Origin: a cyanobacterium endosymbiont of Epithemia turgida isolate EtSB Lake Yunoko | GTDB taxonomy: Bacteria > Cyanobacteriota > Cyanobacteriia > Cyanobacteriales > Microcystaceae | DNA: 32,000 nucleotides | Direction: 5' to 3' | Assembly (NCBI RefSeq): GCF_000829235.1 | Contig: NZ_AP012549.1 | Location: 2,190,001 to 2,222,000, forward strand | Shown: positions 4,157 to 20,553 of the stretch, one piece after another | Layout: each line of letters opens with the position of its first letter | Position numbering within the stretch: the stretch's first letter is position 1 | Notes under the pieces: model-generated | Told to the model about the DNA's origin: nothing | The model's database searches: none | Seen by the model: only the letters and a program-made list of their open reading frames with translations | Program-made: the position numbers and the translations under genes

Positions 4157-5017
4157 TCAACTTCGCCAAATAGCATCAGCTACTAGTGCTATATCTACTA
4201 TTTGTGCTACGTCATGAACCCTTAATATATCTGCTGATTGGGCGATTGCTCCACAGCAGGCTGCGGCAGTTCCCCAGAGTCGTTGTTTCGGGTTAATATG
4301 ACCAATAAAACGCTTACGAGAAACTCCCACCACTATAGGCTGGACTAAACGCTTAAATTCTGACAAACGCTGTAATAGTTCTAAATTTTGTGAGTAAGTT
4401 TTGGCAAAACCGATACCAGGATCAATGATGAGGTGTGATCGCTTAATGCCAGCTTTCATCGCTAAATTCAGTTGATTATCTAACCATTGAATAACTTCTT
4501 CTATTAAATCAGTATAATCCGTCAATTGTTGCATAGTTTGAGGATTACCTCTAATGTGCATTAAGATGATAGGGACTTTTAACTTAGCCACCACTGCAAA
4601 CATCTGGGAATCAAAAGTTCCTCCAGAAACATCATTTACTAAGTCTGCACCTGCTTCGATTGACACTACTAGAGCATCAGCAACTGATGCTCTAGTAGTG
4701 TCAATCGAAATAGGAATAGACGTTTCCTGACGCAGTAGTTTTATTATAGGAATAACACGATTTAATTCTTCTTCGAAAGAAATTTGTTGAGACCCTGGCC
4801 GTGTTGATTGTTCCCCAATATCGATAATATCTGCTCCTGAATTAATGAGGATTTTAGCTTGAATTAAAGCGGTTTCTAAAGTATTAAACTGGCCACCATC
4901 ACTAAAACTGTCAGGAGTTACGTTAAGAATCCCCATAATATAGGTTCTTTTTCCCCAACAAAAGGAATATTGTCTTAGTTTTAAATCAGCCATAATAGTT
5001 TTAAATACTTTCAACAT
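4157..5017 (-). CDS. folP: Dihydropteroate synthase
   Basis: 286-aa ORF with DHPS motifs GILNVTPDSFSDGG, DIGEQSTRPG, ISIDT, NDVSGG, MHIRGNPQTM, DPGIGFAKT and GVSRK. An alternative start is the ATG at 4993 (MADLKLRQ..). The frame is open but contains a 55-bp perfect palindrome (4655-4709) that adds about 3 codons between the ISIDT and AGADLVNDVSGG motifs. Confidence 0.85.
   Translation of the reverse strand: MLKVFKTIMADLKLRQYSFCWGKRTYIMGILNVTPDSFSDGGQFNTLETALIQAKILINSGADIIDIGEQSTRPGSQQISFEEELNRVIPIIKLLRQETSIPISIDTTRASVADALVVSIEAGADLVNDVSGGTFDSQMFAVVAKLKVPIILMHIRGNPQTMQQLTDYTDLIEEVIQWLDNQLNLAMKAGIKRSHLIIDPGIGFAKTYSQNLELLQRLSEFKRLVQPIVVGVSRKRFIGHINPKQRLWGTAAACCGAIAQSADILRVHDVAQIVDIALVADAIWRS
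4655..4709. repeat. Perfect palindrome inside folP (26-bp arms, 3-nt spacer)
   Basis: 4655-4680 (ttcgattgacactactagagcatcag) is the exact reverse complement of 4684-4709 (ctgatgctctagtagtgtcaatcgaa). The spacer is caa. I checked this base by base. Confidence 0.97.
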
Positions 5018-5801: not shown

Positions 5802-6433
5802 AGCTATCTCTAAAAATTAATTTCAATGTTTTTGCAGTCTTCTAGTTTAATGCCTTAAGGATATCAGAGGGAAGAGTACAATAAGATCAAAGTTTGAGAA
5901 AGGAGATAATGTCTTAAGGAACATGACTCATAATCACTTCTATCACTTTTTAAGTAAAATACTTAAAAAACTTAGGATAAAAATTAATTTATATTCTAAA
6001 TTTTTTAGAAAAAATATTGATGTTTATGATTTAACCATTATATTTAATTTCAATGAAAAAGGTTAAATATTGTTATTTTTAACTCTTTTTATTAAAATAT
6101 TTTAACTTTGCAATTAGTACATTTTATTAAATTTTTTCGGGTTTAAAATACTAAGAATTATCCATACATTAGCATAAATTTTAATAAAAAAGCTTTAATA
6201 TTTAACAAACTATCCTGATTAGAAACTAGATATTGTTACATATCTTATTTAATCTTTTAAAGATATAGTTATTTTAATAATTTTAAATATCATATTTTAG
6301 AATTTTTTTTACAATAAAAATTAGGATTAAGTTATAGAGAATATGTTACACTTATTTAATAAGACTTAAACAAAAGATAGTTAGAGCTGCAGATTATATT
6401 TTAATAGCTAAATAAGTGGTTTTATTATAAAAT

Positions 6434-6554
6434 ACTTATTCTTTACTTATTCTTTACTTATTCTTTACTTATTCTTTACTTATTCTTTACTTATTCTTTA
6501 CTTATTCTTTACTTATTCTTTACTTATTCTTTACTTATTCTTTACTTATTCTTT
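6434..6554. repeat. Tandem repeat, 11 exact copies of the 11-bp unit ACTTATTCTTT
   Basis: Counted unit by unit from 6434 to 6554 with no mismatch. It lies in an ORF-free AT-rich spacer. Confidence 0.97.
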
Positions 6555-6936
6555 GTTAATAAATACTAATATTTTTGCTAAAATAAAGATATATATTGGC
6601 AGCTATCAACGTTAGTTAAATTAAACCATATAGTATGTTTTTGTTAACCAATAATCTAAGCTCTATAAAAAAATAACAGTATTTATTTCAAAATTTATTT
6701 GACCAACAAATTGGTTTAACTTAAATAATTAAAACGCAAAATTATTCTTAAAATTTCACCACTCTTAAACAGATACTATCTGAAACAGAATACACCTAAC
6801 ATAGGTTTTAGTGCAATATGTATAGATTAAAGAAGATCTTATATATTTATTTTCAGTAATCCAAGTTTCAAGAATAACGGCTTACTAAGCCAAAAAGTTA
6901 GCAATACTTTGTTAAATCATTTTCTTTTTTTAAACT

Positions 6937-7086
6937 TTATACTCTATCTGATGTTTCCTGATAGAGTGCAGAATCGAATGGTGGAACTTCAATATTGGGA
7001 CATTCATCTTTAGTTGTACTAAAAATGTAATCAAAGCCTTCAGCGATATATTGAACTAAACTTTGCAAGATTTTATCGACACTCAT
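6937..7086 (-). CDS. Small hypothetical protein (49 aa), below the ORF-track cutoff
   Basis: The minus-strand ORF reads MSVDKILQSLVQYIAEGFDYIFSTTKDECPNIEVPPFDSALYQETSDRV*. An AAGAGG Shine-Dalgarno-like motif lies 8 nt upstream of the ATG. The ORF forms a local GC-richer island inside an otherwise ORF-free desert. I cannot assign a family from memory. Confidence 0.4.
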   Translation of the reverse strand: MSVDKILQSLVQYIAEGFDYIFSTTKDECPNIEVPPFDSALYQETSDRV

Positions 7087-7792
7087 AACATCTGCCTCTT
7101 AACTCTCATGAACTTTATAAAAAACTTCACTTGCTGAGGGTTTTTATTTTTTAGAGTTAAAAAAAGCTTTTTTCATCTCTTCTGTTCTCGATTATCTTAA
7201 GAATATTTCAACCTTTGAACAAGTTTGTAATAAATTTTAAAATGACAAGAATCCGCTTTGTATTTTCGTTAACTTTTATAAACTAAAATATTAGCTAGTA
7301 TTAACTTCTAGAGAATTCAGTATAACCATAATGATAGGTTTTCAAACAAAAAACTATTTTTTCACTAAATCAAATTAATCAATTTAATTTACCAATATAT
7401 TTAAAAAATATTGGAATTTTAACTTAAGTTTTTTAAAATAAAAAAACTTAAAGATCAAGGAATTTCAATTGCTATTATGATAAAATTAACGTATTCTATC
7501 GTTGATAGAGCTATTTTGAGAATTTAGTCACTATTAAGATGGTTTATAGATATAGTGAGTGAGTTAGATTTATGAGAACGTACTATGATGTGCTTTCAAT
7601 ACTATCATTCTTGTCCTAATACTGATAAGATTTTATCTCACAATTATCGATAATTTTTAGAGATTAAAGTTATAACTAAGATGGATATTATCAATTACTA
7701 TTTTAAAATAGTGATACTTTTAAAGTAAAACTTAATCAACAAAAGTGAAGTATGTATTCAAGCTATTAAAATGCTATGTGTAGCTGTCATGC

Positions 7793-7820
7793 AACCAGAT
7801 TTAAAAGTTTAAATCTGGTT
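7793..7820. repeat. Perfect palindrome (13-bp arms, 2-nt centre)
   Basis: aaccagatttaaa-ag-tttaaatctggtt. Confidence 0.9.
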
Positions 7821-7919
7821 TAATTTGATATAATTTACTTTAATTAAATTAAAGTACTTAGGAGTACTGTCCTTAATTCAATACACTCGATTGTCTATGT
7901 TTTTCTAAGAGCAAAGATT

Positions 7920-9245
7920 GACTTTATTCTAAATGATTACAGTTTGCTCATAGGTTTGTAGAATCTAACTATGATTGCTTGTTACACCGGAGAGAAACTT
8001 GCTCATCATCAAGCGAGTTTTGAACTGTTCATATGTCATCTCCCAGAATCTTTTGGATATTTAATTGCCATGGGAATTACTCAAAATTTAAATCTTTTAG
8101 AAAATCTACACTTTAGTGAAAAATCCTAAAAAATAGGATTAAAACCTGATTTTTAATCCTATTTTTTAGGATTTTTCATTAGTTCTAGCTTCAGGAGGCT
8201 TTACGGGGAAAGTTTGGGCAGTACATGAAGGAACAACGGTATTTTCCCATGAACCTCTATTGCCGACAGAAGTCTCTTTCTTGCAAGCCCAACTTATAGA
8301 AACCTACTTTTTAAACACCCTCAACTATTAAAATTAGATTGCTACTAAAGTCGGTAGAATAGGCGATGTAGCAAGTAAAAACGCTTTTTTATTAGAAAAA
8401 CCTGAGGTGTGTTCAGTTCAGTCCTTAAGGTTCGATATGAGCGGCTAGAGTAGCTTTAGCGGGAGGGTTGGGGGTCACCTTTAAATAGGTTAGCAGCTCT
8501 AAAATTAGGGTGCCAACCTAGTGTAATCATAGCTTATTCTTTAATCATGGCTATCAAAGCTGTATCAGGGAGTGAAGATGAAGCTTTATATACCTTTAGG
8601 CGTTATTTTTCAGGAGCTACTTTGCTACTTAATACCTAAGATGCAGTAGCTGCAGCAGAAAGCTTAGTGGACAAAGTTAATAAAAGAATCCTCAATGTCA
8701 CAGAAGTTCGCATAGATTCGGGAGATTTAGTTACCTTATCCCAAAAAGTGCGATTTCTATTACCCAACATTAAGATCTTTGCCAGTGGCGATCTTGATGA
8801 ATTGGGAATTGCTCGTCTCAAAGAAGCAGGTGCCTCTATTGATAGTTGTAGATTCGGAACCAACCTTGTAACCGGCAAACCTCTCAAGGGAGTCTATAAA
8901 TTAATGGAAATTGATGGAGCTATTACTATGGCAAAATCTAGCAGTAAGGCCACCTATCCAGGGCAAAAACAGATTTTTGGGACCTACATACAATGAGGGT
9001 ATAGTCAAAGGTGATTGCTTAGGGTTAACCACTGTCTCAATTGAGAGAGCGGAAACCAACTTTTACAGTTGGTCATAACAGAAGGAAAATCCTTGTTTCA
9101 ACCTGAATCTTTAGAGACTATTCGTCAACGAACTCAAAGGTCGGTTGAGAGTCTCCTCTCTGCAACTCATCATCTTAGGCAACCCACTTAAATTGAGGTT
9201 AAAATCTCCAATGAACTCGAATCGTTGCGTCAATCTTTAGGTTAA
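7920..9245 (+). pseudogene. pncB: Nicotinate phosphoribosyltransferase pseudogene (multiple stops and frameshifts)
   Basis: Collinear NAPRTase fragments appear in shifting frames:
- NLTMIACYTGEKLAHHQASFELFICHLPESFGYLIAMGITQNLNLLE (from 7962).
- GFTGKVWAVHEGTTVFSHEPLLPTEVSFLQAQLIETYFLNTLNY* (8196-).
- MAIKAVSGSEDEALYTFRRYFSGATLLLNT* (8548-).
- ORF 8667-8996 (..VRIDSGDLVTLSQKVRFLLPNIKIFASGDLDE..FGTNLVTG..VYKLMEI..TYPGQKQIF).
- The C-terminal ..ITEGKSLFQPESLETIRQRTQRSVESL..RQPT*IEVKISNELESLRQSLG*, ending at 9245. Confidence 0.88.
8116..8177. repeat. Perfect palindrome inside the pncB pseudogene (28-bp arms, 6-nt loop)
   Basis: 8116-8143 (tgaaaaatcctaaaaaataggattaaaa) is the exact reverse complement of 8150-8177 (ttttaatcctattttttaggatttttca). 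The loop is cctgat. Confidence 0.97.
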
Positions 9246-9281
9246 TGGATAGTGAATAGTTGAGTGTTAATTATTAATCAT

Positions 9282-9848
9282 ATGACAAAAATTGCTCTGT
9301 TTGGAACTAGTGCTGATCCTCCTACCGCCGGACATCAATCAATTCTCCGTTGGTTATCTACTCACTATGATTGGGTTGGGGTTTGGACTTCGGATAATCC
9401 TTTTAAAACTCATAAAACTTCTTGGTACCATCGTATGGCAATGTTAACATTATTAATTGATGATATTAATCTCCCAAGAAACAATATTTATCTTAGTGAG
9501 AAACTAAGTCATCGATGTAGTTTGATAAGTTTAGCTAAAGCTAAAGAAATTTGGGGAAACAATCCTGATTATAGTTTGGTAATCGGGTCTGATTTAGTTG
9601 GTCAAATTCGTCGTTGGTATCATATTGAAGATATACTAGAGCAAGTCAATCTTTTGATTGTTCCTCGCTCTGGATACGACCTGACTCAAAAGGATATAAT
9701 AGCTTTGAAGAAATTAGGAGGAAACTATCAGATTGCTGATCTTGCTGTCCCTGCTGTTTCTTCGACTGCTTATAGAGAAAACCAGAATCCAAGTGTATTG
9801 ATTAAACCTATTCAAGAATATATTTATCGAGAGCAATTATACCGATAA
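9282..9848 (+). CDS. nadD: Nicotinate-nucleotide adenylyltransferase
   Basis: The ORF is open from the GTG at 9264. The ATG at 9282 gives MTKIALFGTSADPPTAGHQSIL.., the nucleotidyltransferase (H/T)xGH motif at the usual N-terminal position. SSTAYRE lies near the C-terminus. The gene sits in a pncB-nadD-nrtR-nadE cluster. Confidence 0.88.
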   Translation: MTKIALFGTSADPPTAGHQSILRWLSTHYDWVGVWTSDNPFKTHKTSWYHRMAMLTLLIDDINLPRNNIYLSEKLSHRCSLISLAKAKEIWGNNPDYSLVIGSDLVGQIRRWYHIEDILEQVNLLIVPRSGYDLTQKDIIALKKLGGNYQIADLAVPAVSSTAYRENQNPSVLIKPIQEYIYREQLYR

Positions 9849-9869
9849 ATTTAGAAAAAAATAAATTTG

Positions 9870-10546
9870 TTTTAGCCGGGTTTAAACCTAGTGTAAATAA
9901 TATAATTTTTTTCCTTAATTTTTACCAGAATCAACTCTTCTCTTTATTTGTTAAATGGAAACTCACTCTGTAATAAGCAATAGAATTTATATAAAATTTT
10001 ATAAATTTTTTAAAAAAGTATTATGTAAAAAAATTAGAGTCAATAATCTATATTTAGAGCAATTATGTACTTTTAAGAGTCAAAATTTAGATCCAAAGGT
10101 ATCTCTTAATAGTTTTAATGTCCACTATATTTCTGTTAGCTATTTTGTTTTAGTTCGTTTTGAATAGGCATAACTCTTAAATCTTAATAATTATGGATAG
10201 AATTACTTGGTGCATCATTCAAAAGATTACTCAATTAGTTTTTGATTATGATCAAATTTTAGATTATCGTTATCAACGATTGTGCAATAAAATTAAATAT
10301 AGTCCTATTGCTTTTGAGGTTCTGCTGTACTTATTTACTTTAAATGATATTTATCAAGTTTATTCAGCTATTTTATAAAAAAACTTTACTGATTATTCTA
10401 ATTTTAAATTTCGATTATTAAAATTAGATTTTCTGATAAATACTAAGAGAAAAGTCTCTATAGTTACAGGAAGACCCGCTAGTTTATATCGTTTTGACTT
10501 TGAAGTATTTAATCCCTTTAAAGACAACCATTTTATATTTGTTTAA
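9870..10546 (+). pseudogene. nrtR: Nudix-related NAD regulator (NrtR-type) pseudogene
   Basis: Nudix-domain remnants read ..SVNNIIFFLNFYQNQLFSLFVKW.. and ..NNLYLEQLCTFKSQNLDPK..ISVSYFVLV (compare YLEQLYTFG..RDPRG..ISVAY.ALV). The C-terminal winged-helix part reads FDYDQILDYRYQRLCNKIKYSPIAFEVLLYLFTLNDIYQVYSAIL*KNFTDYSNFKFRLLKLDFLINTKRKVSIVTGRPASLYRFDFEVF. It has an in-frame TAA at 10376-10378, and the same frame continues to 10546. The track ORFs 9955-10167 and 10193-10378 are pieces of this gene. Confidence 0.72.
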
Positions 10547-10563
10547 ATCTAATAAGATTACTT

Positions 10564-12252
10564 ATGAAAATTGCTATTGCTCAACTGAATCCAACCATTG
10601 GAGATTTAGCAAATAACGCTAAAAAAATTGTAGAAGCAGCTCAATTTGCTGCTCATCAAAATGCTAGGCTTTTACTAACTCCTGAATTATCTTTATGTGG
10701 ATATCCTCCCCGCGACTTACTACTTGATCCTAGTTTTATTAAATCCCTTTCTATTGAATTGCAAAGTTTAGCTCAGAAATCTCCCTCTCAATTAGCTATT
10801 TTAGTAGGAACAGTTACTCCTAATCATGATGCTCATATTAAAGGAGAAAAGCCTCTTTTTAATAGTATTGCGTGGTTAGAAAATAGTCAGATAAAAAAGG
10901 TATTTCATAAAAGACTTTTACCAACGTATGATGTCTTTGATGAAGATCGCTATTTTGAACCAGGGCGACAAAATAATTATTTCGAATTATTACCTGATTC
11001 CCAATCATCTACTCCTTTAAAAATTGGGATTACAATCTGTGAAGATTTATGGAATGATGAAAAGTTTTGGGGGGGTAAATATTATGAGTATAATCCCCTA
11101 GAAGATTTGCTTAAATTTGGGGTTGATTTTATTTTAAATTTATCTGCTTCTCCCTATAATGTCGGCAAGCAGAAGATACGAGAAAAAATGGTAAAATATA
11201 GCAGTAAACACTATCAAACTCCTATTATTTATGTCAATCAAATTGGTGGTAATGATGATTTAATTTTTGATGGAAATAGTTTTGCTGTAAACAAAAAAAG
11301 TGAAATTGTATTACGATTAAAGGCATTTGAGGAAAATATTGATTTTATCAATTTACAAATAAAAGATAAAGATCTTTCTTTGTCAAAAATAAATGATGAA
11401 ATAAAAATAGAGGAAGAAGAAATTTGGCTAGCCCTAGTTTTAGGGGTTAAAGACTATGTGAAAAAATGTGGGTTTTCTAAGGTCGTTTTAGGATTAAGTG
11501 GAGGAATTGACTCTGCGTTAGTTGCTGCGATTGCTACAGAAGCGTTAGGAAAAGAAAATGTATTAGCATTACTTATGCCATCTCCTTATAGTTCTCACCA
11601 TTCTATTATTGATGCTGAAGCTTTAGTTAAAAATTTAGGTATTAACAGTTATAAGTTACCTATTGGGGATATTATGGAGTCTTATAAGATTCTATTAGAC
11701 CCCTTATTTGAAGGAACAAAACTTGGAATTGCTGAGGAAAATATTCAATCTCGCATTCGGGGTAATTTATTGATGGCTATTGCTAATAAATTTGGACATC
11801 TTCTGCTATCTACTGGGAATAAATCAGAAATGGCGGTAGGTTATTGCACTTTGTATGGTGATATGAATGGAGGGTTAGCTGTTATTTCAGATGTGCCTAA
11901 AACTCGTGTATTTTCCCTTTGCCGTTGGCTAAATTGTGACAGAGAAATAATACCCCATAATATTTTAATTAAATCCCCTAGTGCGGAATTAAAACCAAAT
12001 CAAACCGATCAAGACTCTTTACCCTCTTATGAAGTACTTGATGAGATTTTAGAGGGATTAATTCATCGTCATCAATCAGTTAGTCAAATTCATGAAGCAG
12101 GATTTGATTTAGCCACTATCGATAAAGTAATAAAATTAGTTGCCAGTGCTGAATTTAAACGAAAACAGGCTTCTCCAGGATTAAGAATAACTGATAGAGC
12201 ATTTGGAACAGGTTGGAAAATGCCTATTGCAAATCGTTGGAAAATTAATTAA
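10564..12252 (+). CDS. nadE: Glutamine-dependent NAD+ synthetase
   Basis: Complete 562-aa ORF. It has an N-terminal CN-hydrolase/nitrilase domain (MKIAIAQLNP.., TPELSLCGYPPRDL, ICEDLW) and a C-terminal NAD synthetase domain with the PP-loop GLSGGIDS, followed by STGNKSE and EFKRKQA. Confidence 0.95.
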   Translation: MKIAIAQLNPTIGDLANNAKKIVEAAQFAAHQNARLLLTPELSLCGYPPRDLLLDPSFIKSLSIELQSLAQKSPSQLAILVGTVTPNHDAHIKGEKPLFNSIAWLENSQIKKVFHKRLLPTYDVFDEDRYFEPGRQNNYFELLPDSQSSTPLKIGITICEDLWNDEKFWGGKYYEYNPLEDLLKFGVDFILNLSASPYNVGKQKIREKMVKYSSKHYQTPIIYVNQIGGNDDLIFDGNSFAVNKKSEIVLRLKAFEENIDFINLQIKDKDLSLSKINDEIKIEEEEIWLALVLGVKDYVKKCGFSKVVLGLSGGIDSALVAAIATEALGKENVLALLMPSPYSSHHSIIDAEALVKNLGINSYKLPIGDIMESYKILLDPLFEGTKLGIAEENIQSRIRGNLLMAIANKFGHLLLSTGNKSEMAVGYCTLYGDMNGGLAVISDVPKTRVFSLCRWLNCDREIIPHNILIKSPSAELKPNQTDQDSLPSYEVLDEILEGLIHRHQSVSQIHEAGFDLATIDKVIKLVASAEFKRKQASPGLRITDRAFGTGWKMPIANRWKIN

Positions 12253-12289
12253 TACTAGCTAAAAGGACAATACTTTTATAGTATTTAAA

Positions 12290-14711
12290 ATAAATTGAGG
12301 TAAAATTGAATCATGATCCATGGTTATTGAGATATCTGAAAAGAATTAGACCATGTAGATCCGCGTTCTTCCTAGTTATGAATTTAAGGAATAGTTGGTA
12401 AATTATCCCCGTAGATAGAAGAATGTACGGTCACATTTGCGATTGTTATGCTATCGTCGAATAATTAGGTGACTAATTTCATATAAGGAATTTCCCCGCA
12501 TCCTGCACAAGCATCCGAAAACTCAAACAAGAGTTCTTACATCTGTTGATGACTAATTTTATTTAGTTGTAAAGTATGTGATTTAAGATTAACAAGAGCG
12601 AAAAAATAGTCCAAATTTTTTCGCTTTTACTCCTGTATTGGTAATTGAGAAGTCATATTTATTGCTTCCAACTTTGCTTGAAATTTATTTTTTGTAGTAC
12701 AAACATTTACATAAAACCCACACCTACTACAGTCTTCCGCAACGACTTGGCTCGTGAATTTCAATTAAGTTTTTTAAAGTCTAAACACTTTGCATAAGTA
12801 GTTTTGAAGACTTGGAGTACATTGGTAAATGTTTGTTTCTTATACACTTTATACTGAATGACCGCATAAGGATACACTAAAACACATTTATTACCTTAAA
12901 CACAGACATTGAGGTCTCGTACAGATATTTAATGGATAACCTTCTGGTTTTTCTATTTTATTTTACCATATTTTTTAAATACATCACGGGTAAATACTAA
13001 TGTGGCATTGAAAATCAGACATTCAAAGTTAGTTGCGTCGTCATCTATCGTTATCGAAACCGCTACTTGATGAAAATAATCTAATGCCGAGTCAACCACT
13101 TTCATATTCATTTGTACGATTTATTTACTTTTTTTACTATAAGTCTTGTAGATGTGTTTTAAAATTGGCTCTCTAGCTTTTTCTCTAGTTAATCCTTTTA
13201 GTTATTTATTGATAATTTATTTTTGGATAGACTAAAAAAATAATATTATATTAGATTTAATCTATAGTGATTATTTAGTATAAATATTAAGCTTTCAACT
13301 ACTCATTCTAAAATATAAATTTATTTATAAGAAAAATCATTAGTTATAAATAATAAAGTTAGCGTTGTTACCTGGTTTAATTAAACTAGAAAAGAAATTT
13401 TTGGAGTAAAAATATCAGGGGTTTGTTCGATGATTTTACCCAGGTTTTCGTTTATATTAACAATCATATCTAAGTATCAACTATAGCAGATAGCTATATT
13501 ATAATCAGTTCTTATAAAAAAGGTTAGACTAGCATGAATAAAACTATCTTTAGTTATAGGATTAAAGTGGTTTTTGCAATCACTTAATACCATATTATTA
13601 CAAATTTTTTTAACCATTAAAGAGATGATTTTTGTGAAATAAATTATATGCCGTTCTCCAATAACTATTTTAATACTTTAAATTAATATCTAAATCTAAA
13701 TAGAGTTTTTAACGCTTTAAAGATAACATATAAATATAAAAGTTATCCAAATAATTTATTTTAAAATTGAGTTTATTCTTGCTATTTTTAATAAAAATTT
13801 AACGAGCTTTATTGTTAAAAATAGACAATACTATTTAATTCTAACAATCCCAATTTTTCCATTAGTTTAATAAAAAATTCAATGCTTTATAAGTGTTTTT
13901 ACAAAACTCATCAAAATAATAACTTTTTCTGCTTTAGAATTACCATAATAGTCAAACAAATGATATTGTTAGCCCGTCAGTTAAGCAAACTTATACATTA
14001 CTTTTTCTAAGATTTTGTGATAAACTTTAGAAAACTCTGGGGGTTCCCTCGTTTGTAAGTAAACATCAGAGTTTTGTAGTAGTTCTTCAACTCATCGGGT
14101 AATCAGGAGTTAACACTCATTCACGATGGGCAATCATCCATTGATCTTTAATCAATGATCGCAAGACACTATCCTCTAATAACTCCACTTTTTGCACTTA
14201 ATAGGCAGTTCGAAACCCATCAAAAAATATATAAAACCCCACAAAAACTGGTGGCTGTAGCTATTACAGCTAAATCTTGCACTTCTTGCACAGATGCAGA
14301 ACTTAACAATACCAACCTAGTCCTACGGACAGCCATCACATTACTATGATCTGATCACCAAAAATAGATAACGTCTGGGCAACTAGAGAGTCTGCTGCGA
14401 CACGGAGTACCAATTGACATGATTTTTCTTATTAAATTGTAGCTATCAGAAATTATCAATAATAAATTCTAAAATAATGTCAATGGAGTGTTAATACTCT
14501 TGTTTACAATGCTTTATTAATAATCTCTGCTATTCCTCTCTCACTTTATATTTAGACGACGGAAGGTACAGTTATCCGGAGGTTTGATCCGCCCATTCTT
14601 CTCTAGGTGAGGAAAAGTAATAGGATAGATAGCAATCACTTCATTGACGTGACGAGTCACTCTAACGACCGCTTTGTTTCCACTCAAAGTGACATAGACT
14701 TAAGTGTTCAT
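12290..14711 (-). pseudogene. nifJ: Pyruvate:ferredoxin/flavodoxin oxidoreductase pseudogene (heavily decayed, 3' part deleted)
   Basis: Collinear PFOR signatures appear on the minus strand through many stops and frameshifts:
- N-terminus, about 14711-14550: MNT*VYVTLSGNKAVVRVTRHVNEVIAIYPITFPHLEKNG.
- About 14385-14205: LSIFGDQIIVM..FFDGFRTAY*VQKVELL.
- About 12935-12850: ISVRDLNVCV*GNKCVLVYPYAVIQYKVY, a decayed CxxCxxCxxxCP ferredoxin motif.
- About 12540-12390: ELLFEFSDACAGCGEIPYMKLVT*LFDDSITIANVTVHSSIYGDNLPTIP.
- About 12375-12335: EERGSTWSNSFQ. Confidence 0.88.
12597..12625. repeat. Perfect inverted repeat (11-bp arms, 7-nt loop) inside the nifJ pseudogene
   Basis: agcgaaaaaat-agtccaa-attttttcgct. 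Confidence 0.9.
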
Positions 14712-15410
14712 AGTGTTCTGGTGCTTGTTTTTTGAGTCCGACAATAAGTTGATTAGAGGGAAAAATTCCTGTAACGAATACGTAACACTTTGTGGTTGAT
14801 AAGTAAAAATAACTACTCTTTTAAAGGTAAGTCAAAGAACTTTAAGGATAGTTAATTATTGAATTAAATTAATGTAAAGTCTACAGTAAGCCTTCTAGGA
14901 CTAAAGTCTCTTATATTTTCATAGTCGTGACTTCAGTAATTATGCCTCTACTCTTAGAATCCAACATAATCAAAGAGTTTAAACAATTTATTATCTTTTT
15001 TTAAGACGTTTAATTTAATAAATATTTTGACGTAAATAAAAAATTATAAATAAAAAGTATCATTTTTCAATGACTTTCAGCAAAGAATACATGTAATTGT
15101 GAGCAAAAAAATTGGACTAATTAGTCTACTAACTATCCGTACCAACCTTGAATATTATTTTAACAAATAAATTGAAATTAAAGTTATCTAAATTTTGTCT
15201 ATCATCAGAGTAATCGCAAAAACGGTTAGTATATTTTTCTGTTTTTTATTGTCTTAAAACAATAGTTCAGAATGTATTAAGTAACCTGGCGGTTGCTATA
15301 TTATTTAGCATAGGCTAGAAATTTGACAAATTGGATCCTCTTTTATTCTAAAACAACTACTTCTACAGAATTATTTAAGAACCCTGGGAAAAAATTGATT
15401 TAGATTTCAC

Positions 15411-18053
15411 TTAAACAATATCTTCTTCTGATTGTTTTTTACAAAATTCTAAGTTATTATTATGACAATCAACAATAACTTGATCACCACAAACAAATCT
15501 ATTTTCTAATATTCTTGTCGCCATAGGATTCTCTAATTCTCGTTGAATAGCCCGTTTTAAAGGACGCGCTCCATAGACTGGATCATAACTAGAACTAACA
15601 ATATAGTCTAGGGCTGAGTCTGTTAATTCTATCCTAATTTTTTGTTCTTTAAGTAATTTTTCAATTCGTTTTATTTGCAGACACACAATCTGCCGTAACT
15701 CTGTTTTATTAAGAGTATGAAAAATAATCAGATCATCGATACGGTTCAAAAATTCGGGACGGAAATGTTTATGCAATGATTCCAAAACCTTTTTGCGCAT
15801 TTCCTCATAATCTGTTTCACCTTGTGTAAGGTTAAGGATATGGCTACTTCCTATGTTACTAGTCATTACAATAATAGCGTTACGGAAATCTATCACTCGT
15901 CCTTGGGAATCAGTAATACGTCCATCATCAAAGACTTGCAAAAGAATATTAAAGACATCTACATGGGCTTTTTCCACTTCATCCAACAACACTACACAAT
16001 AGGGACGGCGACGGACTGCTTCAGACAATTGTCCCCCTTTCTCATACCCCACATATCCAGGGGGCGCACCAACTAATCGAGAGACTGCCTGTTTTTCCAT
16101 ATACTCAGACATATCAATGCGAACCATTGCTTCTTCTGAGTCGAAGAGAAAAGCGGCTAATGCCCTAGCTAATTCAGTTTTTCCTACCCCTGTAGGACCC
16201 ATAAACAAGAATGAACCAATAGGACGAGAAGGATCTTTCATTCCAGCTCTAGCACGACGAATAGCAGCAGCAACAGCAGCTATAGCCTCTTGTTGTCCAA
16301 TAACCTTTTCGTGTAGATGTACTTCAAGTTTAAGAAGTTTTTGACGTTCGGTCGCTAACAAATTATTGGTAGGAATACCTGTCCATCCAGCTACAATTTC
16401 AGCAATATCAGACTCGGAGACTTGTTCTCGGAGTAAGGTTTTGCCCTGCGCTTGAATATCAAGAAGTCGGGTTTCTTTAGCTTCCCGTTGCTGTTGAACC
16501 ACTTCTAGTTTACCGTATTTTAATTGAGCGGCTTTGTTCAGTTCGTAAGCCCTTTCTGCTTGTTCGACTTGTAGACGTAGCTGTTCTTCTTCTTCTTTAA
16601 GAGTATTAATATCATTAAGTATCTGCTTTTCTAACTGCCATTGGGACGCAAGTTGTTCGTGAGTAGATTCTAAATTTTTTATTTCTTTTTGAATGCCTTC
16701 TAAACGTTCTTTGGAAGCGCAATCAATGATTAACATTCCTCGTTGTTCTTCTCCCTCTAAGGAAAGTTTTTCCATTTGTAACTGCATTAAACGACGATCA
16801 ACATCTTCTAGTTCAACAGGTTTAGAGGTGATTTCCATTTTTAACTTAGCTGCTGCTTCATCTACAAGGTCAATGGCTTTGTCGGGTAAAAAGCGATCAG
16901 TAATGTAACGATGGGAAAGAGTTGCTGCAGCTACTAATGCTGAGTCAGTAATTTTGACCCCATGATGGACTTCATAGCGTTCTTTGAGTCCTCGTAGAAT
17001 GGAAATGGTATCTTCCACACTCGGTTGTTTAACATACACTTGCTGAAAACGCCGTTCTAGAGCAGGATCTTGTTCAATATGCTTCCGGTACTCATCAAGA
17101 GTTGTTGCACCGATACAGCGCAATTCTCCGCGGGCTAACATGGGTTTTAAGAGGTTACCTGCATCCATGCCTCCTCCTTCGCGAGAACCGGCTCCAACAA
17201 CGGTATGAAGTTCATCGATAAAGAGTATGATTTCTCCCCCGGATTGGGTGACTTCTCGCATTACGGTTCGTAGACGTTCTTCAAATTCCCCTCGATATTT
17301 CGCCCCCGCGATAAGACTTCCCATATCTAGAGAGATTAATTGACGACTTTTGAGAGACTCAGGAACGTCCCCGTTAATAATACGTTGGGCTAACCCTTCG
17401 GCAATTGCAGTTTTTCCGACTCCTGGTTCTCCAATTAAGACGGGGTTATTTTTTGATCTACGGGAAAGAACCTGAATCACACGACGAATTTCTTCATCTC
17501 GGCCAATTACAGGGTCAAGTTTTCCTTTTGCCGCTTGTTCAGTAAGATCTCGCCCATATTTTACGAGAGCTTCATAATTATCTTCTTGGTTAGGTTCGGT
17601 AACTTTTTGTGACCCTCGAAGTGCCCTTATCTCTTTCTCTAAGTCTTGGGGGTCAAATTGAAAACTCTTCAAGCAACGTCGTCCAATGCGTTCATCTTCA
17701 GCAAATCCCATCAACAGATGTTCAACGGAAATATATTTATCTTGCCAACTTTCACGAGAAGCTTCCGCACGATCTAACATTAAATCTAAGCCCTGTCCTA
17801 AGTAAAGTTGATCGACAGTAATTACTTTAGATTGACGGTTGCCAAAAACTTCTAACTGTTGTTGTAATCGGAAAACATCTAAGTTAGATCTTTCTAAAAT
17901 ACGAATAGCTAAGCCTTTTTCCTGTTCTAACAAGGCTAAAACAACGTGTTCCACTTCTAAGGTTTGATTTCTAAAACGCCGGGCTACGTCTTGTGATCTG
18001 ACAATCGCGTCCCAGGCTTGTTCTGTAAACTTACTTGAATCAGTTGGCTGCAT
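15411..18053 (-). CDS. clpB: ATP-dependent chaperone/disaggregase ClpB
   Basis: The ORF is open to 18104. The ATG at 18053 gives [18 protein letters not shown].., the usual cyanobacterial ClpB N-terminus. There are two AAA+ modules with Walker A motifs GEPGVGKT and GPTGVGKT. A long coiled-coil middle domain and the ClpB signatures [11 protein letters not shown] and [10 protein letters not shown] are present. Confidence 0.95.
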
Positions 18054-20496: not shown

Positions 20497-20553
20497 AATT
20501 TATATTATTTTTACATAAAAATGGTATTTTTTTATGTAAAAATAATATAAATT
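20497..20553. repeat. Perfect palindrome in a gene desert (25-bp arms, 7-nt loop)
   Basis: 20497-20521 (aatttatattatttttacataaaaa) is the exact reverse complement of 20529-20553 (tttttatgtaaaaataatataaatt). The loop is tggtatt. Confidence 0.95.

What the first reader, a model, noticed from the sequence alone, without database searches (positions are those of the whole stretch)
8116..8177. 62-bp perfect palindrome in the pncB pseudogene whose right arm is the native gene sequence
Arms 8116-8143 and 8150-8177 are exact reverse complements (28 bp, loop cctgat). The loop plus right arm translate as PDF*SYFLGF. That aligns with the P-[ED]-D-F-L-x-Y-L-x-x-F segment I recall in NAPRTases (for example ..YPEDFLTYLANF..).

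The left arm sits where ..SE(x)(x)IAYL.. should be. The distance between the flanking conserved ..HFSE.. and ..GFTGKVWAVHEG.. motifs is about 29 codons, against about 27 in the homologue I remember. So the palindrome did not insert 60 bp. One arm was copied in inverted orientation over the neighbouring native sequence. This gives directionality to the event and matches the folP case.
Basis: partly seen in the sequence, partly recalled or inferred. Interest (0 to 1): 0.68.

Follow-up and report, generated by a model that had tools for sequence, protein, structure and literature searches.

The report
Template-switch palindrome in dead pncB gene
A 62-base perfect hairpin inside a dead vitamin-salvage gene of a diatom's nitrogen-fixing endosymbiont is a replication copying error that overwrote one stretch with the mirror copy of its neighbour; the mechanism is known, but it looks unusually common in these genomes.

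Summary
Exact 28-nt arms lie at 8117-8144 and 8151-8178, with loop CCTGAT at 8145-8150.

The window comes from the spheroid-body endosymbiont of Epithemia turgida (EtSB). The palindrome sits in the N-terminal domain of a decayed pncB pseudogene.

Three outgroup spheroid-body lineages have no palindrome. They carry native-like sequence of the same length (63-64 nt against 65 nt), so nothing was inserted.

The right arm matches the nearest outgroup at 21 of 28 positions. The left arm matches it no better than the gene's own pre-existing symmetry allows (17 against 16 of 28). So the left arm was overwritten by the reverse complement of the native right arm. This is a quasi-palindrome template-switch mutation.

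Its protein-motif argument (PDF*SYFLGF) used the wrong frame and register.

The sister genome, the E. adnata endosymbiont, has the same palindrome with a flipped loop. It also carries a 5-nt duplication and a substitution in both arms, so templated copying happened more than once at this site.

The folP palindrome is an EtSB-only templated insertion of 9 nt, in frame. At least ten more lineage-specific palindromes of this type occur in related loci.

The mechanism is known. Its frequency in these genomes seems unreported.

The parts
7915..9245 (+). pncB (nicotinate phosphoribosyltransferase) pseudogene, upstream of intact nadD (9282-9848) and nadE (10564-12252)
   Evidence: Three-frame translation shows many stops and frameshifts. 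Pfam NAPRTase_N scores 51.4 bits on the stitched N-terminus. The C-terminal fragment hits NAPRTases. Intact orthologues are about 460 aa. The gene is also a pseudogene in the endosymbionts of E. adnata, R. gibberula and E. clementina.
8117..8144 (+). Left arm: the overwritten copy (8118 to about 8140 replaced by the reverse complement of the right arm). T8117 and the inner A-run are shared with the native sequence.
   Evidence: It matches the nearest outgroup's left segment at only 17/28, the same as the pre-existing symmetry of 16/28. The native hallmark AAAATTTTAAA(A/C)AAAC, kept in the unnamed outgroup lineage and in the R. gibberula endosymbiont, is replaced by AAAATAGGATTAAAA. That string is the reverse complement of the native right-hand AATCCTATTTT.
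8145..8150 (+). Loop CCTGAT. It has the opposite orientation in the E. adnata endosymbiont (AATCAGAC).
   Evidence: Which orientation is ancestral could not be resolved.
8151..8178 (+). Right arm: the native-derived template, covering codons equivalent to F-x-H-x-P-x-K-F-W of PncB, in frame with the downstream FTGKVWAVHEG
   Evidence: It matches the nearest outgroup at 21/28 in register, including CCTATTTT and ATTTTT. It is in frame with 8170-8208, DFSLVLASGGFTG = KFWSLLESGRFTG of the orthologues.
8155..8173 (+). Nested 7-bp hairpin inside the right arm (AATCCTA-TTTTT-TAGGATT), mirrored at 8122-8140 in the left arm. It may mark an earlier, smaller templated change.
   Evidence: Read directly from the sequence. 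It is imperfect in the E. adnata endosymbiont (TATGATT). The outgroups have AAAAAATT / CTAAATT here. This reading is inference only.
9114..9155 (+). A second, still unconverted native quasi-palindrome in the same pseudogene (GAGACTATTCGTCAAC ... GTTGAGAGTCTC)
   Evidence: Two sister lineages have its right arm perfected to GTTGACGAATAGTCTC (+4 nt, G>T). One of them also has the 15-nt spacer inverted.
4655..4709 (-). folP coding palindrome (26-nt arms, 3-nt loop). Arm 4684-4709 is native. Arm 4655-4680 carries the EtSB-only templated +9 nt and one substitution (4663-4672).
   Evidence: Alignment of five endosymbiont lineages: only EtSB has the insertion, changing ADAAIEAGAD to ADALVVSIEAGAD, and the ORF stays intact. 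An identical Logan contig exists.
20497..20553 (.). Third long perfect palindrome in the window (25-nt arms, 7-nt loop) in AT-rich non-coding DNA
   Evidence: No orthologous sequence was available to establish its origin.

Best explanation
The palindrome is the scar of a short-range template-switch mutation, also called quasi-palindrome correction. It lies in a non-functional gene.

The native pncB sequence already had a weak inverted symmetry here. Its centre was CAAAAA-N5-7-TTTTTG, and the outer ends were AAAAAT / ATTTTT.

During DNA synthesis, after the split from the nearest sampled outgroup lineage, a nascent 3' end left its template. It paired with the complementary half of this quasi-palindrome and copied about 24-27 nt. 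It then returned to the original template. The result was that the native left half (8118 to about 8140) was replaced by the exact reverse complement of the native right half (8151-8177). Net length changed by only +1 to +2 nt.

At least one more templated event followed in the EtSB / E. adnata endosymbiont pair. The two genomes differ by a 5-nt duplication and a substitution, and each is present symmetrically in both arms. They also differ by a flipped loop. One re-copying of 'arm plus loop' would produce all three differences at once.

What is shown: the derived state, its direction, its near length-neutrality, the pre-existing seed, and its recurrence. What is inferred: that replication was the cause, whether the switch was a fold-back within one strand or a jump across the fork, and the order of events.

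The hairpin needs no function. It persists because the gene is already dead.
For: Source and phylogeny:
- The window belongs to the 2,794,318-bp E. turgida spheroid-body genome.
- Identity to the window over pncB is 96.5% for the E. adnata endosymbiont, 91.5% for an unnamed metagenomic lineage, 82.7% for the R. gibberula endosymbiont and 79.5% for the E. clementina endosymbiont.

The palindrome is derived and length-neutral:
- The three outgroups lack it and keep native-like, translatable sequence of 63-64 nt, against 65 nt in EtSB.

Direction of copying:
- The right arm matches the nearest outgroup at 21/28, the left arm at 17/28, and the background symmetry is 16/28.
- At 8.5% divergence the binomial probability of the observed mismatches is 0.03 for the right arm and 9e-6 for the left arm.
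- The flanks are about 95-100% identical, so the changes form a tight cluster.

Pre-existing seed:
- The CAAAAA...TTTTTG centre is present in free-living pncB genes.

Recurrence at this site:
- The E. adnata endosymbiont has 32-nt arms, an 8-nt loop, symmetric differences in both arms and a flipped loop.
- I predicted this beforehand from a Logan contig that ends exactly k-1 = 30 nt inside the arm.

The same process elsewhere:
- folP has a templated +9 nt.
- The site at 9114-9155 is perfected in sister lineages, with a loop flip in one.
- Ten further lineage-specific perfect palindromes each retain one native arm.
- Two strains of the E. clementina endosymbiont differ only by an AAA/TTT loop flip.

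Literature:
- Template switching creates perfect stems, symmetric compensatory changes and loop inversions (PMC8794818).
- It also homogenises inverted-repeat arms and inverts spacers (PMC8604942, abstract).
Against: The right arm is not pristine. It differs from the nearest outgroup at 6 positions plus a 1-nt indel, against about 2.4 expected. So further changes must be assumed, such as the nested TTAGGA cluster and a G>C at 8177.

The region is A/T-rich and low in complexity, so per-site comparisons carry limited information.

The ancestral loop orientation is unresolved.

I cannot tell a single origin followed by re-homogenisation from two independent conversions.

No direct evidence ties the event to replication.
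Confidence: 0.85

Rival explanations
1. Maintenance by recombination. The palindrome arose by template switching, but the later symmetric changes and loop flips come from RecA-type recombination or gene conversion between the two arms, not from repeated replicative template switching.
For: Recombination between inverted repeats inverts the spacer and can co-convert the arms. Loop flips are seen between EtSB and the E. adnata endosymbiont, between two sister lineages at the second site, and between strains of the E. clementina endosymbiont. Spheroid-body DNA repair genes are reported as largely intact (10.64898/2026.03.19.712447).
Against: Arms of 16-32 bp are at or below the usual minimum length for efficient homologous recombination (general knowledge). 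One template-switch event explains the flip and the homogenisation together (PMC8794818). Recombination cannot explain the original overwrite of non-homologous sequence.
Confidence: 0.2
2. Functional hairpin. The perfect stem is kept by selection, for example as a terminator, an RNA element or a protein-binding site. That would explain why both lineages keep perfect arms.
For: The arms are perfect in two genomes that differ at about 3.5% of sites, and every difference within the arms is symmetric. The hairpin is very stable.
Against: - It sits inside a dead gene and is absent from three other endosymbiont lineages.
- The stem is 82% A+T and is not followed by a T-tract.
- Rfam gives only sub-threshold matches to eukaryotic miRNA hairpin models, on both strands.
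- Many unrelated palindromes of different sequence occur at arbitrary places, including inside folP.
Confidence: 0.05
3. Opposite direction. The left arm is native and the right arm is the inverted copy.
For: A gapped alignment to the distant E. clementina endosymbiont gives the left arm moderate similarity. Two informative sites favour a native left arm.
Against: Against the nearest outgroup the left arm has 11 mismatches in 28 (P about 9e-6 at 8.5% divergence), while the right arm keeps CCTATTTT and ATTTTT in register. Informative sites favour a native right arm 6 to 2. The right arm is in frame and in register with the downstream conserved FTG block.
Confidence: 0.04
4. Inserted hairpin element. 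A small mobile or foreign palindromic element (MITE- or REP-like) inserted here and native sequence was deleted to compensate.
For: Perfect hairpins are typical of such elements. Free-living cyanobacteria do carry families of repeated hairpins.
Against: - Length is conserved to within 1-2 nt.
- One arm is homologous to the native gene.
- The arm sequence occurs nowhere else in the window or in 1.55 Mb of fetched loci.
- The other palindromes share no sequence with it.
- There is no target-site duplication.
Confidence: 0.02
5. Artefact of assembly or of whole-genome amplification (an inverted chimera).
For: Amplification chimeras are inverted junctions (general knowledge).
Against: - An identical independent Logan assembly exists.
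- The homologous palindrome is in the complete E. adnata endosymbiont genome.
- A Logan contig from a separate run breaks exactly k-1 nt inside the arm, as a real arm of at least 31 nt would cause.
- The change is a short, length-neutral replacement, not a junction.
Confidence: 0.01

Closest known systems
Quasi-palindrome-associated template-switch mutations (Ripley 1982 model; E. coli lacZ quasi-palindrome reporters, PMC7202029)
   Same: An imperfect inverted repeat is made perfect by copying one arm from the other. This gives clustered substitutions and templated indels, as at 8117-8178, at the folP +9 nt, and at the +4 nt of the 9114-9155 site in sister lineages.
   Different: The events here are natural and fixed, with long copied tracts (about 24-27 nt) that create 26-32-bp perfect stems. 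The reporter events correct a few bases. No genetic test of the pathway is possible in this uncultured endosymbiont.
Template-switch mutations that create and maintain hairpins in rRNA and miRNA genes (Monttinen & Loytynoja 2022, PMC8794818) and short-range template switches in great apes (PMC7954356)
   Same: A single event creates a perfect stem. Compensatory changes are symmetric, loops invert, and net length is nearly unchanged.
   Different: Those cases concern functional RNA genes or large eukaryotic genomes. This one lies in a bacterial endosymbiont pseudogene with no RNA function. The local density also looks much higher: 3 long events in about 600 differing alignment columns between EtSB and the E. 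adnata endosymbiont. [quoted passage not shown]
Inverted-repeat arm homogenisation and spacer inversion in yeast genes (PMC8604942)
   Same: Arms are homogenised, spacers are inverted, and multinucleotide changes fall inside coding sequence (compare folP).
   Different: The host is a bacterial endosymbiont, the arms are much longer, and most events fall in decaying DNA.
Coding palindromes in Nematomorpha mitochondrial genes (PMC6649704)
   Same: Long perfect inverted repeats are tolerated inside protein-coding genes of a reduced genome, as in the folP case.
   Different: Those repeats reach 284 bp and are numerous within each gene. Here a single 55-nt palindrome adds three codons.

Membership tests
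Template-switch / quasi-palindrome-correction mutation | The derived sequence is the exact reverse complement of an adjacent sequence | tested here: met
   8117-8144 is the reverse complement of 8151-8178.
Template-switch / quasi-palindrome-correction mutation | The ancestral state lacks the repeat, and the change is a cluster confined to the target while the flanks are conserved | tested here: met
   Three outgroup lineages have no palindrome. The flanks are about 95-100% identical to the nearest outgroup. There are 11 mismatches in the 28-nt left arm.
Template-switch / quasi-palindrome-correction mutation | The source (template) arm keeps homology to the ancestral sequence | tested here: met
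   The right arm matches the nearest outgroup at 21/28 in register. Informative sites favour it 6 to 2. It carries more changes than expected (6 against about 2.4).
Template-switch / quasi-palindrome-correction mutation | Length is conserved, or indels are templated | tested here: met
   65 nt against 63-64 nt. The folP +9 nt and the +4 nt at the second site are exact complements of the other arm.
Template-switch / quasi-palindrome-correction mutation | Complementarity already exists at the switch points | tested here: met
   The nearest outgroup's left and right halves are 16/28 complementary. The CAAAAA...TTTTTG centre is present in free-living pncB.
Template-switch / quasi-palindrome-correction mutation | It arises during DNA synthesis (strand bias, dependence on exonucleases or polymerase) | not testable with these tools
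   This needs genetics or mutation-accumulation data.
Mobile hairpin element (MITE / REP-like) | A multi-copy family with a net insertion and a target-site duplication | tested here: not met
   The arm is single-copy in the window and in 1.55 Mb of loci. There is no net insertion. The whole genome was not searched.
Intrinsic terminator / structured RNA | A G+C-rich stem with a U-tract, or a match to a curated RNA family, conserved across lineages | tested here: not met
   The stem is 82% A+T with no T-tract. Rfam hits are far below the gathering scores. The structure is absent from three lineages.
PncB (NAPRTase) pseudogene | Homology to the NAPRTase domains, a disrupted reading frame, and conserved pncB-nadD-nadE synteny | tested here: met
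   Pfam PF17767 scores 51.4 bits. Stops and frameshifts are present. Synteny holds in all endosymbiont loci and in L083.

The most novel reading that the evidence does not exclude
Spheroid-body (diazoplast) genomes of rhopalodiacean diatoms may be a natural hot spot for template-switch mutagenesis. Long perfect palindromes would be continually created, re-homogenised and flipped across the genome. Extrapolating from 3 palindromes with arms of 25 nt or more in 32 kb gives a few hundred in EtSB.

Such events would speed pseudogene decay. They would add codons to essential genes such as folP. They would also create multinucleotide changes that can mislead scans for positive selection. The cause could be the unusual dnaA-less replication of these genomes or the loss of a nuclease that processes hairpins or 3' ends.
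Probability: 0.4. Interest if true: 0.65.

Novelty: new member of a known kind. Interest (0 to 1): 0.45.

Why it matters
This one palindrome is an ordinary mutational scar, but an unusually clean one. Outgroups preserve the ancestral state. The direction of copying can be read off. A sister genome shows a second round of templated copying together with a loop flip.

Taken with the folP insertion and at least ten similar lineage-specific palindromes in about 88 kb of endosymbiont sequence, it suggests that template switching is a notable source of clustered mutations in these young endosymbiont genomes. Palindromes with arms of 17 nt or more are about 6 times as dense as in free-living cyanobacterial loci, and those with arms of 25 nt or more about 45 times. 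This does not appear in the spheroid-body genome papers I could search.

There are three practical consequences:
- Such events mimic several independent substitutions and can produce false signals of positive selection.
- Arms of 31 nt or more break short-read assemblies exactly at the palindrome.
- They offer a natural data set on how hairpins originate and how their two arms evolve together.

One caveat applies. The enrichment may reflect relaxed selection in non-coding DNA and not a higher mutation rate.

Tried and rejected
Real orthologues and the reading frame place the conserved KFWxLLxSGRFTG block at 8170-8208.
It supplied orthologue proteins and a control set, but no close relatives.
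- A metagenome-contig scan with a 22-nt block conserved in all known relatives found nothing. That collection lacks the JGI samples holding the relatives.
- Look-up of NadD from the GTG start failed. The ATG start worked.
- L083 and L084 turned out to be unrelated, frameshift-rich or degraded cyanobacterial contigs at 66-68% identity and were not informative.
- Comparing the arms with the R. gibberula and E. clementina endosymbionts alone was ambiguous (11-14 of 27-28 for either arm). The nearer outgroup, fetched with the last look-up, resolved it.
- The ancestral loop orientation could not be resolved. Both orientations match the outgroups about equally well (hand comparison of the sequences).
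- The Rfam search gave only generic hairpin noise.
- Literature searches for palindromes in Epithemia spheroid bodies found nothing.
Full report
OBSERVATION

The window contains a perfect 62-nt palindrome. Its arms are 8117-8144 (TGAAAAATCCTAAAAAATAGGATTAAAA) and 8151-8178, and its loop is CCTGAT at 8145-8150. Taken literally, they are not reverse complements. With one G/T mismatch the arms extend to 31 nt, spanning 8114-8181.

Chance does not explain it. In 200 shuffles that preserve local composition, the longest perfect arm had a median of 11 nt and a maximum of 18 nt. Folded as single-stranded DNA, the hairpin has dG -25.7 kcal/mol and a z-score of -10.5.

Each arm also contains a small nested hairpin, AATCCTA-N5-TAGGATT.

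SOURCE AND CONTEXT

Exact-sequence look-ups place the window's proteins on a 2,794,318-bp NCBI contig. Their closest named relatives are 'cyanobacterium endosymbiont of' Epithemia adnata, E. clementina, Rhopalodia gibberula and other rhopalodiacean diatoms. The window is therefore from the spheroid body (diazoplast) of Epithemia turgida, abbreviated EtSB.

The palindrome lies in a heavily decayed pncB pseudogene at about 7915-9245.
- The translation has many stops and frameshifts.
- The stitched N-terminus matches Pfam NAPRTase_N from end to end across the palindrome, at 51.4 bits against a cut-off of 32.6.
- The C-terminal fragment hits nicotinate phosphoribosyltransferases.
- Intact nadD and nadE follow downstream.

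NOT AN ARTEFACT

A Logan (k=31) contig from run SRR29904087 is 100% identical to window 6525-16119, which includes the palindrome.

A Logan contig from a 97.6%-identical relative began exactly 30 nt (k-1) before the outer end of the right arm. From this I predicted that the relative has a palindrome with arms of at least 31 nt at the same outer boundary. The complete genome of the E. adnata endosymbiont (EadnSB, CP076462.1) confirmed the prediction.

WHAT THE RELATIVES SHOW

I obtained the orthologous region from several lineages:

| Lineage | Identity to window over pncB | Palindrome at this site | Length between anchors TTTAGT...T(T/C)(C/T)TAGCTT |
|---|---|---|---|
| EtSB (window) | - | yes | 65 nt |
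| EadnSB | 96.5% | yes | 75 nt |
| 'SBx', an unnamed lineage seen identically in five JGI metagenome contigs, four of which span this site | 91.5% | no | 63 nt |
| R. gibberula endosymbiont (RgSB) | 82.7% | no | 64 nt |
| E. clementina endosymbiont (EcSB) and close strains | 79.5% | no | 64 nt |

Identities come, and lengths.

The three outgroups read as recognisable PncB. RgSB gives YFSQEQLENFKKLEFLTIYTKFWLILA... and EcSB gives HFSQEQL*SLDKIIIFSHPLKFLSILASRDFPGGVW. Free-living orthologues read ...HFTSQQIEALQNTGIFAHAPAKFWSLLESGRFTG....

So the palindrome is a derived feature of the EtSB+EadnSB clade. It replaced native sequence and was not inserted.

WHICH ARM IS NATIVE

Comparison with SBx, the nearest outgroup, gives these results:
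- The right arm matches the orthologous SBx segment at 21 of 28 positions, with one 1-nt gap. The matches include CCTATTTT and ATTTTT in register.
- The left arm matches at 17 of 28.
- SBx's own left half matches the reverse complement of its right half at 16 of 28. So the left arm resembles the native sequence only where that sequence was already symmetric.
- At sites where SBx-left differs from the reverse complement of SBx-right, EtSB follows the right arm at 6, the left at 2, and neither at 4.
- With the regional divergence of 8.5%, the observed mismatches have binomial P = 0.03 for the right arm and 9e-6 for the left arm.

The native left-hand hallmark AAAATTTTAAA(A/C)AAAC is shared by SBx and RgSB. 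In EtSB and EadnSB it is replaced by AAAATAGGATTAAAA, which is the reverse complement of the native right-hand AATCCTATTTT.

The right arm is also in frame and in register with the conserved downstream block. DFSLVLASGGFTGKVWAVHEG at 8170 onward corresponds to KFWSLLESGRFTGDVWAVPEG.

Its supporting argument was not. PDF*SYFLGF is in the wrong frame, and the recalled motif PEDFLxYLxxF does not occur in these orthologues.

SEED

The functional gene already carries an inverted symmetry at this point. An example is CAA AAA ACA GGA ATT TTT G in free-living cyanobacteria. RgSB has AAAAAACTAGAATTTTT. SBx has outer AAAAAT / ATTTTT ends. This is the classic substrate for quasi-palindrome correction.

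RECURRENCE AT THE SAME SITE

EadnSB has 32-nt arms (TGAAAAATCATAAAAAATAGAATAGGATTAAA and its complement) and an 8-nt loop, AATCAGAC. Relative to EtSB it differs in three ways:
- A CTATT tandem duplication is present in both arms.
- A G>T change is present in both arms.
- The loop is in the opposite orientation, with two additional substitutions.

No difference within the arms is asymmetric. Independent drift cannot produce this pattern. There are two possibilities. The two lineages may have converted separately from right arms that had already diverged. Alternatively, a second templated event re-copied 'right arm plus loop' over 'left arm plus loop'. That one step would homogenise the arms and flip the loop.

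Published work describes exactly these outcomes of template switching (PMC8794818; PMC8604942, abstract). I cannot tell the two histories apart, and I could not resolve which loop orientation is ancestral.

THE SAME PROCESS ELSEWHERE

(a) folP, 4655-4709. Only EtSB has a 9-nt in-frame insertion plus one substitution. Together they turn an interrupted quasi-palindrome into a perfect one with 26-nt arms. The inserted CTAGTAGTGT is the complement of ACACTACTAG in the conserved arm. The protein changes from ADAAIEAGAD to ADALVVSIEAGAD and the ORF stays open.

(b) Window 9114-9155. This is a native quasi-palindrome that encodes ETIRQRTQRSVESL. In SBx and in another lineage (L085) its right arm has been perfected (+4 nt, G>T). 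In L085 the 15-nt spacer is also inverted.

(c) Further lineage-specific palindromes. EcSB, SBx, RgSB and EadnSB each carry additional perfect palindromes with 17-26-nt arms. In most, one arm is the conserved native sequence and the other is overwritten at nearly constant length; the two in A/T-rich spacer DNA (EadnSB L089 2917-2966, RgSB L091 5043-5095) could not be polarised. Two EcSB strains differ only by an AAA/TTT loop flip.

(d) Density. Perfect palindromes with arms of at least 17 nt and loops of at most 20 nt number 14 in 88 kb of spheroid-body sequence. The control is 35 in 1,367 kb of free-living cyanobacterial loci. For arms of at least 25 nt the counts are 6 and 2.

(e) EtSB against EadnSB. 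Of 35 mutation clusters, 3 have an exact reverse-complement source nearby. None do under the reverse-only or complement-only controls.

RIVALS

- Mobile hairpin element: excluded. Length is conserved, one arm is homologous to the native gene, and the arm is single-copy in the window and in 1.55 Mb of fetched loci.
- Functional hairpin: unlikely. The site is a dead gene, three lineages lack the structure, the A+T-rich stem has no T-tract, and Rfam gives only sub-threshold noise.
- Artefact: excluded.
- Recombination between the arms: this remains a possible contributor to loop flips and arm homogenisation. It cannot explain the origin of the palindrome.

COMPARISON WITH KNOWN BIOLOGY

This is a new, well-polarised natural example of a known mutational mechanism, namely quasi-palindrome correction or short-range template switching. 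It is not a new kind of element.

What may be new is how common long events are in spheroid-body genomes. The spheroid-body genome papers I could search do not mention palindromes, hairpins or template switching. One of them reports DNA replication and repair as largely intact apart from the loss of dnaA, and it had to correct 76 genes for possible multinucleotide mutations.

[quoted passage not shown] Here there are 3 long events in about 600 differing alignment columns. The methods differ. Relaxed selection in the abundant non-coding DNA could also explain the excess without any rise in the mutation rate.

VERDICT

- The mechanism is a templated overwrite of the left arm by the native right arm, with at least one further templated event in the clade (confidence about 0.85).
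- Interest is moderate: the mechanism is ordinary, the natural example is clean, and there is a credible lead to a genome-wide pattern.

Noticed in passing
window 4655-4709 (folP, minus strand): EtSB-specific templated +9 nt (3 codons, A to LVVS) plus one substitution. It creates a perfect palindrome with 26-nt arms inside an intact, presumably essential folP gene. The other four spheroid-body lineages lack it.
   Followed up: yes
window 9114-9155; L096 6055-6102; L085 about 790-845: A native quasi-palindrome in the pncB pseudogene is unconverted in EtSB and the E. adnata endosymbiont. It is perfected (+4 nt, G>T) in two sister lineages, and one of them also has the 15-nt spacer inverted.
   Followed up: yes
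L094 7780-7834 vs L092 7780-7834 (orthologous to window about 9070-9125): The E. clementina endosymbiont has its own 26-nt-arm palindrome in the pncB pseudogene. The left arm is overwritten and the right arm is native. Two near-identical strains differ only by the loop, AAA against TTT.
   Followed up: partly
window 20497-20553: A third long perfect palindrome (25-nt arms, 7-nt loop, 96% A+T) in an 18.5% GC non-coding stretch. No orthologous sequence was available to establish its origin.
   Followed up: no
window 12355-13738: A 1.4-kb segment is absent from the E. adnata endosymbiont but present in three other spheroid-body lineages. So it is a deletion specific to the E. adnata endosymbiont, not an insertion in EtSB.
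   Followed up: partly
window 6433-6554: A perfect tandem array of an 11-nt unit (TACTTATTCTT, 11.1 copies, 100% matches). It coincides with the break between the two Logan contigs and with an alignment gap against the E. adnata endosymbiont.
   Followed up: partly
window 6937-7086 (minus strand): A 49-aa ORF in the 23% GC spacer between tpiA and pncB is called in the E. turgida, R. gibberula and E. clementina endosymbionts and the unnamed metagenomic lineage, but not in the E. adnata locus, and it clusters at 90% identity or more. It may be a real small gene or a conserved remnant.
   Followed up: no
window about 9850-10560: The NrtR / Nudix-like regulator gene between nadD and nadE is 241-248 aa in the R. 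gibberula and E. clementina endosymbionts. In EtSB it is reduced to a 61-aa ORF, and to 103-117 aa fragments in the E. adnata endosymbiont and the unnamed lineage. This suggests decay of NAD-salvage regulation alongside pncB.
   Followed up: no
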